Below are positions 3,727 to 7,748 of a DNA stretch of 64,000 nt, piece by piece. Positions within the stretch are counted from its first letter, which is position 1. Each line of letters begins with the position of its first letter. The translations under genes were made by a program, and so were the position numbers. Origin of the DNA: the human T2T-CHM13v2.0 reference genome, Homo sapiens; the NCBI RefSeq assembly GCF_009914755.1, contig NC_060930.1. The stretch is one strand, 5' to 3'. The notes below the pieces were generated by a model. The model had not been told where the DNA came from and made no database searches. It saw only the letters and a program-made list of their open reading frames with translations.

Positions 3727-6007
3727 AAAACTGTCATTGTTATTATGGTTTGTTTGTGGTGTCTGGTCTCTCTCCAGAGGTGTCTTTCGCATCTGTAGAC
3801 TAAAAGTAAACAGCATAAATAGATACACATTAAAGTAAAATTTGTAATAGTTGATCCTCCAGTGGTCTTAATTTATTTAAGAGGGTTTTCGTTTGAAAGT
3901 CCATTAGTAGTTTTGGTGAGAATGTCAGTCTCAGGCAGGAGAGTTGAATGACCCTGAGTCCCTTTAAAAACCTGTTTTATTAATTTGACTAAATTTAATA
4001 TTAATTTTTTATCCCTTTTTTTAGATGATATTTAACTTTTTTAAAATGATGTTTAGTAGTATTATATGAATAGGGAGTTATGTAGAAATCAGAAGTATTT
4101 TAATCACATTGTATTTGTAATTGATGCTTTAAGCTTATTATATGATCTTTCATTTAAATAACAGTCTATATAAGATTATTTATTTGATTTGTTAATTGTT
4201 GGTCTGTTTAGGTCTGAGTTCCACAATTTTTGAGGAATTTTTTTGTCAATTATTGACATATTTTGTAGTTTGAATAGAGGAGTGTAAAGTAATTCCAGCA
4301 GCCACAGCAGTAGCTGTGACTGCAATAAGGCCCATAATGACTGTTATAAGGCTAAAAATAAATCTTTTTGTTTTGGTAAACACTTTTTTTTAACATTTTT
4401 GTGACCATATGAATGGAAGGAGAGGCTTTTTAAGGTCTATTGAGGAAAACTGGTATCCAAACTTTTTTTAAATCTTTACCAGTAACACAGATGTTTTTTC
4501 ACCAAATGTGAAATCAATACAGGTGAAAAGGTGACAGTTTTGACAAGTAATAGTTTGATAATTAGGTCGAATATTAATATTTTCAAACATTAACATAAAA
4601 GGAGGTTTGACAGAACTTTGGGCACCGTTTGGTGGGAAGAAAACTGATACACAAATTGAAGTCTCTCATCATTTTTTTAAAGATTATATATATTTTTAAA
4701 CCCGAATATGAGTTTGGGCCATCATTAACTTCCATAATTTGGGAATTATGTTTAGGGCCTATTATTGGTTTAATTATTTTTGGATGTGGGCCAGCCATAC
4801 TAAAATTGGCCCAAATTATGGGAAACTGGGCATGTTGTTTAGTGTAAGTAGTGTCATCTTTTTGATAGTATAGTTTTTGTTTCAGTCCTGTCATGTATTT
4901 ATTATTTTGATTGGTACAATTAACTGTAAAGGTCCCCTTAGGAGACCAATTAATGACGATTTTATAGGAATTATTTTGTAGTACCAGTGTGATTGGAGAT
5001 GTAATTTTTTTTTTTTTTTTTTTTTTGAGACGGAGTCTCGCTCTGTGGCCCAGGTGGGAGTGCAGTGGCGCAATCTCGGCTCACTGCAAGCTCCGCCTCC
5101 CGGGTTCACGCCATTCTCCTGCCTCAGCCTCCCGAGTAGCTGGGACTACAGGCGCCCACCATCACGCCCGGCTAATTTTTTTTGTATTTTTAGTAGAGAC
5201 GGGGTTTCACCGTGTTAGCCAGGATGGTCTCGATCTCCTGACCTCGTGATCCGCCCGCCTCGGCCTCCCAAAGTGCTGGGATTACAAGCATGAGCCACCG
5301 CGCCCGGCCGTAATTTTTTAAAATTAATATTTTTAAATTTTTTCACCATTGTTGAGGCTGTTAATCCCTCTTTTTGGGGGGTTTAAATTGTTTTAATTGA
5401 ACCAAACTTTGTGAATGATCTGGGTTCTATTTAGAAAATAAATGATAGAGTACTGGTTTTTTATTATGACCTGGAATTTTAACAGTCAATGTTGTCAGTA
5501 GTCTTTTAGGCAACTGATAGTTGGCCCTATGTAAAGAGGGGGAACTGATAACTCATGGACACATTTATTAACATTTACTTCTTCTCTGGGTGAGAGGGTT
5601 TATAAGTATCTGTAGGCTCAGGCATCTAAACACTATTATTAACATAAACCTCAACCAGGGGTTTTAACCATGTAACAGGCCTAATTAAAGGCAGAAATGG
5701 GACATATATCTAATAGGTATAATTTTGGTTTGTTGTAGTTACAGGGAGACTTACCGTCATAGTAATTACCGTATTATAGTCACCATCAGGTTACTTGAAG
5801 TTAGTGGGTTTTGTTGTATCTTTAGGTGTTTTTTTTGTAAGTTGGGTCCATCATTTGATTTGTTTTCAAGCTGGTGGGCTCATTTGATGGGTTTTGTTGG
5901 TCTTTACCTGGTTGGCTGAAATGTGTATTTGAGCCATCAGGCGTGTTGGGGGCGGGGGTGGAAATCTTGGCTTAAAAATTTTTTTTTTTTTTTGGAATTT
6001 TGTTTAT
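3710..6007 (-). pseudogene. env: HML env remnant (signal peptide/Rec region, SU, TM), many stops, AluY inserted
   Basis: Translates to NYTY*IYVPFLPLIRPVTW and furin site KTKR (4363-4374) followed by fusion peptide [23 protein letters not shown]. The expected start codon reads ATA at 6005-6007. Confidence 0.88.
5011..5309 (-). mobile_element. AluY inserted in env
   Basis: Full dimer, CpG-rich, AluY diagnostics (CTGCAAGCTCCGCC, TTCACGCCATTC); TSD GTAATTTTTT at 5001-5010 and 5310-5319. Confidence 0.95.
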
Positions 6008-7070
6008 GGTAGAGTTTAAGATGTTTTGTAGGTACCCAAACTGGAAGTTGTTTTTTTTCTGGGGAAATACAAACAAACCCTCTTTCCCGTGTAATAACTT
6101 TTCCTCTTTTTTAGGTCTTTGTTTTTGAGTTTTTTTTACCACACAGGTTTTTCTTTATGAACATTTACCTTTTGTCCTGTTAAATGTTGTTTAGTTGTTG
6201 TAGTAACCTGATTTTGGGAGATGTTTAAAAAAATTTAAGGTAACAAGAGCCAATTGTAACTGTATATGAGGGGTGGAATATTTTTAATTTTTTTAATTTT
6301 TTGTTTATGTAATTGTATTTTTAAGATTTGATTGGCTTGTTTCACAATTGTTTGTCCTTGAGAATTATAGGGAATGCTTGTGTTGTGTTTAATGTTTTAT
6401 TGTTTTAAAAATGTTTGGAAAGATCTGCTACAGTAGTCTGGTCCATTGTCTGTTTTTAATTTTTGTGGAATTTCCATGATAGTAAAACAGGAAAGTAAGT
6501 GTCTTTTTATATGTGTTGTAGTCTTGCTGGTTTGGCAAGTAGTCCATATAAAATAAGAATATGTATTTATGGTCGCATGGACATAAGAAAGTTTGCCAAA
6601 TGTAGGAACGTGGGTGACGTCTGTTTGTCAGATTATGTTAGGTGTCAACCCTCAAGGGTTAACACCAGTTTTTTGATGCGGTAGTTGTAGTACCTGGCAC
6701 TGAGGACAATGTTGTACAATGTCCTTGGCCTGATTTTACATAATTTGATATTTGTTTTTAAGTCCTGTTGTGTTAAGGTGTAAGGTGTGTTATTGAGTGG
6801 AAACTTTGGGCATTAGTAAGTATGGGGGAAACCAACAAGTCAGCTTGTTTATTAGTCTTAGTCAAGGGTCCTGGAAGATTGGTATGTGCTCAGATATGAG
6901 TTATATAGAAAGGAAAACCCTGAGTACGCACAGCTGTTTGTAAAGAGTTGAACAATTGATAAAGCTGTTTACCAATAATATATTTAATTAAGGCAGTTTT
7001 AATATGTTGAGTAGCTTGTACAACATAAGTTGAATTTGAAACAATATTAACTGGCTGATTAAAATTTTTT

Positions 7071-7357
7071 TTTTTTAGAGACAGAGTCTTGCTCTGTCGC
7101 CCAGGCTGGAATGCAGTAACGCCATCTCGACTCACTGCAAGCTCCGCCTCCTGGGTTCACGCCATTCTCCTGCCTCAGCGTCCCGAGTAGCTGGGACTAC
7201 AGGTGCCCGCCACCATGCCCAGCTAATTTTTGTATTTTTAGTAGAGACGGGGTTTCACCGTGTTAGCCAGGATGGTCTTGATCTCCTGACCTAGTGATCC
7301 GCCCACCTCAGCCTCCCAAAGTGCTGGGATTACAGGCGTGAGCCACCGCGCCCGGCC
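7071..7357 (-). mobile_element. AluY inserted in RNase H region
   Basis: Full dimer; TSD TAAAATTTTTT at 7060-7070 and 7358-7368. Confidence 0.95.
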
Positions 7358-7748
7358 TAAAATTTTTTAATACTGTAATTACTGTTTGTAATTCAGCTCT
7401 TTGGGCTGAGGAAAAGTTAGTGTGGATAACTTTATCACATGGTCCCATATATGTCGCTTTTTCAGTACTAGAGCCATTAGTAAAAACAGTTACAGTTCCT
7501 TTTAAAGGGGCATTAGGAGTAATTTTTGTAAGAACCCATGTAGTTAATTTTAAGAACTGGAAAATTTTATTTAGGATAATGATTATTAATACATTTAACA
7601 AATTTTGTTAAATTAACTTGTCACGTAACTGAATTAATAAATGCTTGTTTAACCTGATTTTTATGTATTGGAACTACAATCTTATTGGGCTTAGGGCCAT
7701 AAAGTTTAACAATTTGTATATGAGCCTGTCCAATTAAAATTGTCTTTT

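What the first reader, a model, noticed from the sequence alone, without database searches (positions are those of the whole stretch)
5001..7368. Hypermutation appears to have created the L1-endonuclease sites later used by AluY insertions
Seen: three AluY elements lie within about 3 kb, all on the proviral sense strand. Alu 1 sits at sense TTA-AAA-AAT-TAC, which aligns to the W-E-(E/D)-C motif of HML Env SU (HML-2 VLVWEECV). The inferred ancestral TGG-GAA-GAT-TGC has no TT/AAAA site; one extra substitution is needed to reach the observed TTA. Alu 2 sits at TTA-AAA-AAT-TTT (VLKNF; homologues VLxDF). Both TSDs end at TTTT/AA on the + strand. Alu 3 (TTT/GA) does not need this explanation. Inference: antiviral editing turned the provirus into a strand-biased retrotransposon landing pad, linking APOBEC3 action to later SINE targeting.
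Basis: partly seen in the sequence, partly recalled or inferred. Interest (0 to 1): 0.72.

Follow-up and report, generated by a model that had tools for sequence, protein, structure and literature searches.

The report
Alu insertions in edited HML-10 provirus
Three Alu elements sit in an old, heavily G-to-A-mutated retrovirus copy inside a PKIB intron, two of them at runs of A that this mutation produced, but one locus cannot show that the mutation attracted them.

Summary
The window carries the published HML-10(PKIB)/6q22.31 provirus (3155-10401, minus strand) with three sense-oriented Alus. Alu 1 and Alu 2 lie at perfect TT/AAAAAA sites, in Env SU (W-E/K-D-C codons) and in RNase H (V-L-x-D-F). 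Alu 3 lies at a non-canonical site.

Copy-by-copy comparison with eight other HML-10 copies shows a strong strand-specific G-to-A load: 143:18 against the DAP3 copy, while C/T changes are symmetric. About 34% of conserved G are changed, in a GxA-like context. The least-edited copies carry G where both A-runs now stand. Both target-site duplicates carry the A's, so the A's predate the Alus. Sense-strand TTAAAAAA rose about 10-fold, and the sense:antisense ratio is 12:1.

Four results limit the claim:
- The site-1 A-run is shared with the C4 and Y copies, so it is not private to this provirus.
- Half of the TTAAAA sites pre-exist in other copies.
- The DAP3 copy took an antisense AluSp at the same homologous position without an A-run.
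- This provirus is not significantly richer in Alus than its family (P=0.23), and family orientation is 9 sense to 4 antisense (P=0.13).

That target composition steers nested Alu insertions is already in print (Levy 2010). Only the link to editing is new, and its generality is untested.

The parts
3155..10401 (-). HML-10(PKIB)/6q22.31 provirus, flanked by the 6-bp duplication ATGTCC (sense GGACAT) at 3149-3154 and 10402-10407
   Evidence: LTR direct repeats. Duplication found. It matches element no. 25 (TSD GGACAT, 3x AluY, PKIB antisense) of Broecker 2016 Table 1 and locus 6q22.31 of Grandi 2017 Table 1.
3155..3705 (-). 3' LTR
   Evidence: 92.1% identical to the 5' LTR.
9855..10401 (-). 5' LTR
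5011..5309 (-). Alu 1: body 5027-5309 plus a 16-A tail. Sense to the provirus. 21 CpG retained.
5001..5010 (-). TSD of Alu 1 (sense AAAAAATTAC); second copy at 5310-5319. In sense it is preceded by TTTT (5320-5323), a perfect TT/AAAA site. It lies in the Env SU W-E/K-D-C codons.
7071..7357 (-). Alu 2: body 7077-7357 plus a 6-A tail. Sense. 15 CpG.
7060..7070 (-). TSD of Alu 2 (sense AAAAAATTTTA); second copy at 7358-7368. Preceded in sense by ATT, a perfect TT/AAAA site. It lies in the RNase H V-L-x-D-F codons.
7745..8037 (-). Alu 3: body 7757-8037 plus a 12-A tail. Sense. 8 CpG. TSD TTAAAATTGTC at 7734-7744 and 8038-8048. Non-canonical site, sense AAAT/GACA.
6827..7060 (-). RNase H domain remnant, stops read as X
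   Evidence: PF00075, E=1.1e-5, profile positions 59-137 of 141.
6361..6783 (-). Integrase zinc-binding and core domain remnants
   Evidence: PF02022 E=1.7e-9 and PF00665 E=1.1e-18.
4904..5679 (-). Env SU N-terminal domain (HERV-K_env_2) remnant, split by Alu 1
   Evidence: PF13804 profile 1-53 at 5521-5679 (E=1.7e-10) and profile 137-165 at 4904-4990 (E=8.5e-4, below the curated cut-off). The less-edited copies match profile 43-168 across the site.
4001..4258 (-). Env TM (GP41-like) remnant
   Evidence: PF00517, E=1.2e-6, 29.1 bits against a cut-off of 29.6.
8245..8956 (-). Reverse transcriptase and thumb remnants
   Evidence: PF00078 E=6.5e-28 and PF06817 E=2e-15.
9498..9680 (-). Gag p10 remnant
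   Evidence: PF02337, E=1.8e-12.

Best explanation
The region is the pol-env part of the defective HML-10(PKIB) provirus. Its coding strand carries a heavy, strand-specific G-to-A load. That load was acquired before integration, most likely by cytidine deamination of minus-strand cDNA; this attribution is inferred.

The load falls mainly on G followed by A, C or G and then by A. It therefore lengthens existing A-tracts and creates TT/AAAA(AA) motifs almost only on the sense strand. Later, L1 endonuclease with target-primed reverse transcription inserted three Alus, all in sense. Two of them sit at T2A6 sites whose A's are G in the least-edited paralogues.

Shown: the G-to-A substitutions made these two target sequences. 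Plausible but not shown: they raised the local chance and set the orientation of insertion.

The site-1 A-run was not made by an event private to this provirus. It is shared with the C4 and Y copies, so it was either inherited from an already edited, trans-mobilised progenitor or hit repeatedly as a hot spot.
For: G-to-A load:
- A-for-G against G-for-A, PKIB versus DAP3: 107:11 in the env 3' segment and 143:18 in the RNase H-IN-env 5' segment.
- PKIB versus 19q13.41 in gag-RT: 108:30.
- T/C against C/T stays symmetric, for example 29:22.
- Sense composition is A 39.5-39.7% and G 11.7-12% in PKIB, against A 32-33% and G 19-20% in DAP3, chr10 and 19q13.41.
- 236 of 704 G conserved in the comparison copies are A in PKIB. 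The fraction changed is GAA 0.73, GCA 0.77, GGA 0.44, GT* 0.07-0.20 and GNC 0.09-0.20.

The two canonical sites:
- At site 1, four of the eight other copies (chr10, 1p22.2, 19q13.41, DAP3) keep G-rich codons. At site 2, two of the three alignable copies read TTAGAAGAT.
- Both TSD copies of Alu 1 and of Alu 2 carry the A's, so the A's predate insertion.

Motif counts:
- Sense TTAAAA in the internal region: 30 (5.7/kb) against 9 antisense (1.7/kb). The window flanks have 1.55 and 1.17 per kb.
- TTAAAAAA: 12 sense (10 counted plus the 2 used sites) against 1 antisense in 5.2 kb. The flanks have 10 and 13 in 56.8 kb.
- In the same aligned segments PKIB has 11 T2A6, while the least-edited copies have 0-1 per segment.

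Local clustering:
- 3 of the 5 young Alus in the window lie in the provirus: P=0.010 by length, but P=0.25 when weighted by T2A6 sites. The clustering is what the motif density predicts.

Published background:
- Levy 2010 (passages read) reports TT|AAAA as the Alu site. It reports that integration-site density in a target element explains over-representation. It also reports an Alu-into-L1 sense bias of 44,751 to 20,044.
Against: - Site 1: AAAAAATTAC is identical in C4 and Y. C4 and 6p22.1 already have TT/AAAA there. In that segment only 6 A-for-G columns are private to PKIB, against 23 shared with C4 and Y.
- Site 2: 1p36.13 already reads TTAAAAG.
- Of 29 sense TTAAAA in the aligned segments, 14 exist in at least one comparison copy. 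Six differ only by G at A positions. Nine need other changes as well.
- The DAP3 copy took an antisense AluSp at the same homologous position, with its TSD overlapping by 8 bp. DAP3 keeps AGGATTGC there, and the site is non-canonical.
- C4 and Y are as A-rich in the env 3' segment, yet carry no Alu there.
- Family level: 13 Alus in 49.2 kb. PKIB's 3 are not an excess (P=0.23). 6p22.1 and 19p13.2 have 4 each, and 6p22.1 is not G-to-A rich in gag-RT (A 31%, G 22%). Orientation is 9 sense to 4 antisense (P=0.13), or 6 of 10 without PKIB.
- Two sense Alus in other copies use family-conserved sites.
- Levy 2010 Table 3 gives Alu into ERVK as 27 sense to 43 antisense.
- Alu 3 uses a non-canonical site.
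- n=3, and the locus was picked post hoc.
- The GCA context is not a described primate APOBEC3 preference.
Confidence: 0.6

Rival explanations
1. Ordinary nested Alu insertion into a family that is A-rich anyway. HML-10 internal regions offer many TT/AAAA sites whether or not they were edited, and three sense Alus in this copy are chance. The G-to-A load is real but incidental.
For: - Grandi 2017 reports the family at 31-36% A (passage).
- 14 of 29 sense TTAAAA pre-exist in other copies.
- Alus in the Y and 19p13.2 copies sit at conserved TTAAGAAAAA and TTTAAAAACC.
- 6p22.1 and 19p13.2 carry 4 Alus each, and PKIB is not an outlier (P=0.23). Three of three in sense has P=0.125.
- DAP3 was hit at the same position without an A-run.
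Against: - Both canonical sites that were used are among those that do not exist in the least-edited copies.
- T2A6 sites are about 10-fold more frequent in PKIB than in those copies.
- The young-Alu density is far above the flanks (P=0.010 by length).
Confidence: 0.3
2. The shared orientation reflects forces acting after insertion rather than target choice. Closely spaced inverted Alu pairs are unstable and under-represented. All three Alus are also antisense to PKIB, the better-tolerated orientation in introns.
For: - Alu 2 and Alu 3 are 376 bp apart.
- 'Alu pair exclusions in the human genome' (PMC3215922; only the search listing and the start of the abstract were seen) reports a deficit of inverted pairs.
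- PKIB is on the + strand, according to the hub's gene table.
Against: - Alu 1 is 1.75 kb from Alu 2.
- This does not explain the use of T2A6 sites or the local excess of young Alus.
- 19p13.2 holds 2 sense and 2 antisense Alus within 4 kb.
Confidence: 0.07
3. A regional insertion hot spot in the PKIB intron, from chromatin or replication context and unrelated to the provirus sequence.
For: None found beyond the clustering itself.
Against: Outside the provirus only 2 Alus in 52.9 kb are as close to Alu 1 as the three proviral ones are (19708-19983 at 89.2%, 45639-45923 at 87.4%).
Confidence: 0.03

Closest known systems
Nested transposable-element insertion preferences (Levy, Schwartz and Ast 2010, NAR, PMC2836564; passages read, supplement not readable)
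   Same: Alus enter older elements at TT|AAAA-type sites. The density of such sites in the target, and its strand asymmetry, explain over-representation and orientation bias. Alu into L1 is 2.2-fold sense.
   Different: Here the site density comes from a strand-specific G-to-A load in one provirus, not from the family's own sequence. For ERVK as a class that paper lists 27 sense to 43 antisense, the opposite direction.
G-to-A hypermutated endogenous retroviruses (Lee, Malim and Bieniasz 2008, seen only as reference 63 of Grandi 2017, content recalled; Ito 2020, PMC6955324, passages; Knisbacher and Levanon 2016, PMC4866542, passages)
   Same: A strand-biased G-to-A excess fixed in a provirus, with a non-random sequence context, read as a footprint of APOBEC3.
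   Different: Those reports give GG and GA for primates. Here +2 A dominates (GAA, GCA, GGA), closer to the GxA motif described for rodents. None of the passages seen links editing to later retrotransposon targeting. The main text of PMC4866542 has 0 occurrences of 'endonuclease' or 'nested'.
Published annotation of this locus: HML-10(PKIB), 6q22.31 (Broecker 2016, PMC5142424, Table 1 no. 25; Grandi 2017, PMC5667498, Table 1)
   Same: Same provirus, same three AluY on the same strand, same TSD GGACAT. Family-wide A bias is noted, with APOBEC suggested.
   Different: Neither paper, in the passages found, describes a copy-specific G-to-A load, the Alu target sites, or a link between them.

Membership tests
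L1-endonuclease / target-primed Alu insertion | Perfect or near-perfect target-site duplication of about 7-20 bp flanking the element | tested here: met
   10, 11 and 11 bp, all perfect.
L1-endonuclease / target-primed Alu insertion | 3' poly-A tail abutting the downstream duplication | tested here: met
   16, 6 and 12 A beyond the duplication.
L1-endonuclease / target-primed Alu insertion | TT/AAAA at the 5' edge of the duplication on the element's sense strand (TTTT/AA on the nicked strand) | tested here: met
   Met for Alu 1 (TTTT/AAAAAA) and Alu 2 (ATT/AAAAAA). Not met for Alu 3 (AAAT/GACA).
AluY subfamily | Subfamily-diagnostic positions against reference consensus sequences | not tested
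The label is taken from Grandi 2017 Table 1. Identity to Alu 1 is 90.8% for Alu 2 and 88.3% for Alu 3.
APOBEC3-type hypermutated provirus | Large excess of sense-strand G-to-A over A-to-G, with C/T changes symmetric, relative to related copies | tested here: met
   143:18 against 29:22 versus DAP3. 107:11 against 21:13 in env 3'.
APOBEC3-type hypermutated provirus | Edited G in a GG (A3G) or GA (A3D/F/H) context | tested here: inconclusive
   GA is met (0.63 in S2b; GAA 0.73). GG is weak (0.32; GGG 0.20). GC is as high as GA (0.59; GCA 0.77), which is not a described primate preference.
APOBEC3-type hypermutated provirus | Load acquired before integration: present along the genome and the same in both LTRs | tested here: inconclusive
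   The internal load is high in all three segments. The LTRs show only about a 2:1 excess (16-28 against 7-15). In env 3' most A's are shared with C4 and Y, so their timing relative to this integration is open.
HERV-K(HML-10) | LTR pair with a 5-6 bp duplication, betaretrovirus-like gag-pol-env domain order, and closest homology to the C4 prototype and other listed HML-10 loci | tested here: met
   (ATGTCC). (Gag_p10, RVT_1, RVT_thumb, RNase_H, Integrase_Zn, rve, HERV-K_env_2, GP41). (81-88% identity to the C4, Y, DAP3, 6p22.1, 1p36.13 and 19q13.41 copies).

The most novel reading that the evidence does not exclude
Deaminase editing does more than inactivate a provirus at birth. By turning G into A next to existing A's, it converts the coding strand into a dense array of extended L1-endonuclease sites. 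Edited ERVs would then be broken up faster, and in a sense-biased way, by later Alu and L1 insertions. This would be a delayed second hit, measurable genome-wide as an excess and orientation bias of nested SINE/LINE in hypermutated copies against unedited copies of the same age.
Probability: 0.4. Interest if true: 0.55.

Novelty: new member of a known kind. Interest (0 to 1): 0.36.

Why it matters
If general, this would tie two well-studied processes together: APOBEC-type editing of retroviruses and L1-driven retrotransposition. Antiviral editing would shape where, and in which orientation, later SINE/LINE insertions land in ERVs. It would then bias ERV decay, nested-repeat dating and ERV phylogenies. 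As it stands, this is one clean, quantified example of a plausible corollary of known target-site rules. The objects themselves are already annotated in print.

Tried and rejected
The scan was repeated with stops read as X.
- The supplement of Levy 2010, with the full orientation table, could not be read. Only Table 3 of the main text was seen, so family-resolved counts for ERVK internal regions are unknown to me.
- Site 2 could be compared in only 3 of 9 other loci. C4, Y, 6p22.1, chr10, 1p22.2 and 19p13.2 gave no credible tblastn match to the RNase H peptides. Window 5746-7053 found only DAP3, 1p36.13 and 19q13.41 among HML-10 copies.
- Rows left out of the alignments, because their matches were partial or split: 6p22.1, 1p22.2 and 19p13.2 from the env 3' segment; DAP3, Y and 1p36.13 from gag-RT; 19q13.41 from the RNase H-env 5' segment.
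- A sample test on other HML groups listed was considered and dropped. Most hits are at 66-68% identity, and I take them from recall to be young HML-2 copies, which should carry few nested Alus. No repeat annotation is available here, so the power would be negligible.
- AID (WRC, which is sense G-Y-W) was rejected as the editor because GTA and GTT are the least changed contexts. An A3G-only signature was rejected because GGG is 0.20. CpG decay was rejected because only 6 of 118 private changes in S2b follow a C.
- Descent could not be separated from hot-spot recurrence for the A's shared by PKIB, C4 and Y. The split of C4 and Y from the rest rests on 28 A/G columns, 1 C/T column and 0 transversions. 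Non-A/G distances are star-like. The nested counts of 23, 11, 5 and 4 lean towards descent with some recurrence.
- Literature searches for the link returned no paper that states it among the rows listed. None of the 15 rows listed contains TTAAAA together with the APOBEC terms.
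Full report
WHAT IS THERE

The window's + strand between 3155 and 10401 is the antisense strand of a provirus. Two LTRs (3155-3705 and 9855-10401, 92.1% identical) are flanked by the 6-bp duplication ATGTCC, which is GGACAT in sense. With stops read as X, the minus strand gives Gag_p10, RVT_1, RVT_thumb, RNase_H, Integrase_Zn, rve, HERV-K_env_2 and GP41, in that order.

This is the published HML-10(PKIB) provirus at 6q22.31. Broecker 2016 lists it in Table 1 as no. 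25 (TSD GGACAT, '3x AluY', antisense in PKIB). Grandi 2017 lists it in Table 1 with three AluY, all on the provirus strand. I read both papers as passages found by term search.

THE OBSERVATION

Three full-length Alus lie at 5011-5309, 7071-7357 and 7745-8037. All are in sense with the provirus, and all have perfect target-site duplications of 10, 11 and 11 bp and A-tails of 16, 6 and 12.

- Alu 1: sense TTTT/AAAAAATTAC.
- Alu 2: sense ATT/AAAAAATTTTA.
- Alu 3: sense AAAT/GACAATTTTAA.

- In the less-edited HML-10 copies the site-1 codons are in frame. They read TGG-GAG-GAT-TGC (chr10 copy), TGG-AAG-GAT-TGC (1p22.2) and TGG-AAA-GAT-TGC (19q13.41).
- These translate as ILVWEDC and ILIWKDC inside Pfam HERV-K_env_2.
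- A 2-nt deletion in PKIB just downstream explains why Pfam matches another frame there.
- Site 2 aligns with TTA-GAA-GAT-TTT (VLEDF) in DAP3 and 19q13.41, and with TTA-AAA-GAT-TTT in 1p36.13, inside RNase H.

IS THE PROVIRUS G-TO-A LOADED?

Yes. I compared it copy by copy with other HML-10 copies of the same assembly.

| Segment | Comparison copy | A-for-G : G-for-A | T/C : C/T |
|---|---|---|---|
| env 3' | DAP3 | 107:11 | 21:13 |
| RNase H-IN-env 5' | DAP3 | 143:18 | 29:22 |
| gag-RT | 19q13.41 | 108:30 | 39:28 |

These counts come; the A/G ratios are repeated. Sense composition is A 39.5-39.7% and G 11.7-12%. In DAP3, chr10 and 19q13.41 it is A 32-33% and G 19-20%. The LTRs show only about a 2:1 excess.

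Of 704 G conserved in the comparison copies, 236 are A in PKIB, and the context is strong. The fraction changed is GAA 0.73, GCA 0.77, GGA 0.44, GAT 0.47 and GCT 0.51. It is 0.07-0.20 for all GT* and 0.09-0.20 for all GNC.

This pattern speaks for an enzyme acting on the minus-strand cDNA. It is not the GG/GA pattern reported for primate ERVs. It is closer to the GxA motif reported for rodent APOBEC3 (Knisbacher and Levanon 2016, passages). The attribution to APOBEC3 is therefore inference.

DID G-TO-A MAKE THE TWO SITES?

At the sequence level, yes. In the 12 nt of site 1, four of the eight other copies keep G's (chr10, 1p22.2, 19q13.41 and DAP3). At site 2, two of the three alignable copies read TTAGAAGAT. 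Both duplicated copies of each target carry the A's, so the A's were there when the Alus arrived.

Four qualifications apply.
- Site 1's AAAAAATTAC is identical in the C4 and Y copies. C4 (TT/AAAAAAAA) and 6p22.1 (TTT/AAAAG) already have a canonical site there. 1p36.13 has the six-A run.
- In that env segment, C4 and Y are as A-rich as PKIB. The A/G ratio is 41:38 between PKIB and C4 and 27:40 between PKIB and Y. 23 columns have A in exactly PKIB, C4 and Y. 11 have A in PKIB and Y only, and just 6 in PKIB alone.
- The split of C4 and Y from the other copies rests on 28 A/G columns, 1 C/T column and no transversion. Distances excluding A/G are star-like. So the site-1 A-run comes either from an already edited progenitor that went on being mobilised, or from repeated editing of the same hot spots. 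It is not an event private to this provirus. In RNase H-IN-env 5' and in gag-RT the load is largely private (118 and 37 private A-for-G columns).
- At site 2, 1p36.13 already has TTAAAAG. The extra G-to-T next to the site-1 nick is private to PKIB (1 of 9 copies). It lies outside the duplication, so its timing is open. An A at that position, as in C4 and 6p22.1, also gives a canonical site.

DOES THE LOAD MAKE A STRAND-BIASED TARGET?

Quantitatively, yes.

| Motif | PKIB sense | PKIB antisense | Window flanks |
|---|---|---|---|
| TTAAAA, internal region | 30 (5.7/kb) | 9 (1.7/kb) | 1.55 and 1.17 per kb |
| TTAAAAAA, 5.2 kb | 12, including the two used | 1 | 10 and 13 in 56.8 kb |

- In the same aligned segments, PKIB has 8, 12 and 9 sense TTAAAA. 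The least-edited copies have 1 (DAP3, chr10, 19q13.41), 5 (DAP3) and 3 (19q13.41).
- PKIB has 5, 2 and 4 T2A6 against 0-1 in the least-edited copies.
- Of the 29 sense TTAAAA, 14 already exist in a comparison copy. Six differ only by G at A positions. Nine need G-to-A plus another change.
- Because the favoured contexts are G followed by A or by xA, the changes lengthen existing A-tracts. That is why extended sites rise more than hexamers. This last step is inference.

IS THERE AN EXCESS OF ALUS?

Locally, yes. Among about 14 Alu-like hits in the window, only two outside the provirus are as close to Alu 1 as Alu 2 and Alu 3 are. They are 19708-19983 (89.2%) and 45639-45923 (87.4%). This threshold was chosen after seeing the data. 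Three of five in 10.7% of the non-Alu length gives P=0.010. Weighted by TTAAAA the value is P=0.095, and weighted by T2A6 it is P=0.25. So the clustering is what motif density predicts.

At family level there is no excess.
- Grandi's Table 1 and my own mapping give 13 Alus in nine independent proviruses, 49.2 kb without secondary insertions. PKIB's three are not an excess (P=0.23).
- 6p22.1 and 19p13.2 carry four each. 6p22.1 is not G-to-A rich in gag-RT.
- Orientation is 9 sense to 4 antisense (P=0.13 one-sided), or 6 of 10 without PKIB.
- C4 and Y, equally A-rich in env 3', have no Alu in that segment.
- Two sense Alus in other copies use sites conserved across the family: TTAAGAAAAA in Y and TTTAAAAACC in 19p13.2.
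- The DAP3 copy carries an antisense AluSp at the very position of Alu 1. Its duplication AGATGCAATCCT overlaps Alu 1's by 8 bp. DAP3 keeps the G's there, and the nick site is non-canonical. By my own rough hand estimate (no tool call), among 13 insertions some pair this close would arise by chance about one time in four, so I read it as a caution, not a hot spot.

COMPARISON WITH WHAT IS KNOWN

Levy et al. 2010 (passages) already showed several of these points.
- Alus enter older elements at TT|AAAA.
- The density of such sites in the target explains over-representation.
- Orientation can be strongly biased: Alu into L1 is 44,751 sense to 20,044 antisense.
- For ERVK as a class they list 27 sense to 43 antisense, which does not favour a general sense bias. 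LTRs and internal regions are not separated there, and the supplement was unreadable.

G-to-A hypermutated ERVs are well known (Ito 2020 and Knisbacher 2016, passages). Grandi 2017 notes the family's A bias and suggests APOBEC. In four searches and in the passages read, I found no statement that editing creates L1-endonuclease sites or steers later insertions. That link is the only new element.

VERDICT

The sequence-level claim holds: G-to-A substitution produced the two A-runs before the Alus arrived. There is one correction: at site 1 the run is shared with two other proviruses. The causal 'landing pad' claim is mechanistically plausible and fits the local numbers. But it rests on three insertions chosen after the fact, and this family of nine loci does not bear it out. 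Its generality needs primate empty sites and a genome-wide test.

Noticed in passing
L011:2330-2660 (HML-10 copy in DAP3, 1q22): An antisense AluSp sits at the position homologous to Alu 1 of the window. Its 12-bp duplication (one mismatch) overlaps Alu 1's duplication by 8 bp. It is an independent hit on the same Env W-x-D-C codons in a copy that keeps the G's.
   Followed up: partly
L015 (assembly contig 10, about 39.171-39.181 Mb): An HML-10 provirus-like copy with an LTR, env, and gag-pol pieces, 77-81% identical to the window copy. It is not in the provirus lists seen in Grandi 2017 Table 1 or Broecker 2016 Table 1. The latter shows only a solitary LTR at 10p11.21 on chromosome 10. It may lie in sequence that was unresolved in the older assemblies.
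   Followed up: partly
window 3706-9854 against L009-L016: The editing context is GxA-like: +2 A is strongly favoured, +2 C and +1 T are avoided, and GCA is changed as often as GAA. This is unlike the GG/GA preference reported for primate ERVs.
   Followed up: partly
window 3706-5010 against L009, L010: In env 3', the grouping of the C4 and Y copies (with PKIB) against the other copies rests on 28 A/G columns, 1 C/T column and no transversion. The published type I/type II env clusters may therefore reflect shared or convergent editing rather than ordinary descent. PKIB also carries the RNase H-IN segment that C4, Y, 6p22.1 and chr10 lack.
   Followed up: partly
L012:5104-6505 (HML-10 copy at 6p22.1): Four Alus are packed into 1.4 kb of the segment specific to the copies without RNase H-IN. 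The second Alu starts directly behind the A-rich tail region of the first, and long A-runs flank them.
   Followed up: no
window 5011-5319: Alu 1 keeps 21 CpG, against 15 in Alu 2 and 8 in Alu 3, and has a pure 16-A tail, so it looks the youngest. Its insertion size of 309 bp equals the human-minus-chimpanzee length difference of this locus in Grandi 2017's orthologue table.
   Followed up: no
window 4975-4985: PKIB has a 2-nt deletion relative to 7 of the 8 other copies; the 6p22.1 copy could not be aligned across this stretch. It lies about 25 nt downstream (in sense) of the Alu 1 site and shifts the env frame.
   Followed up: no
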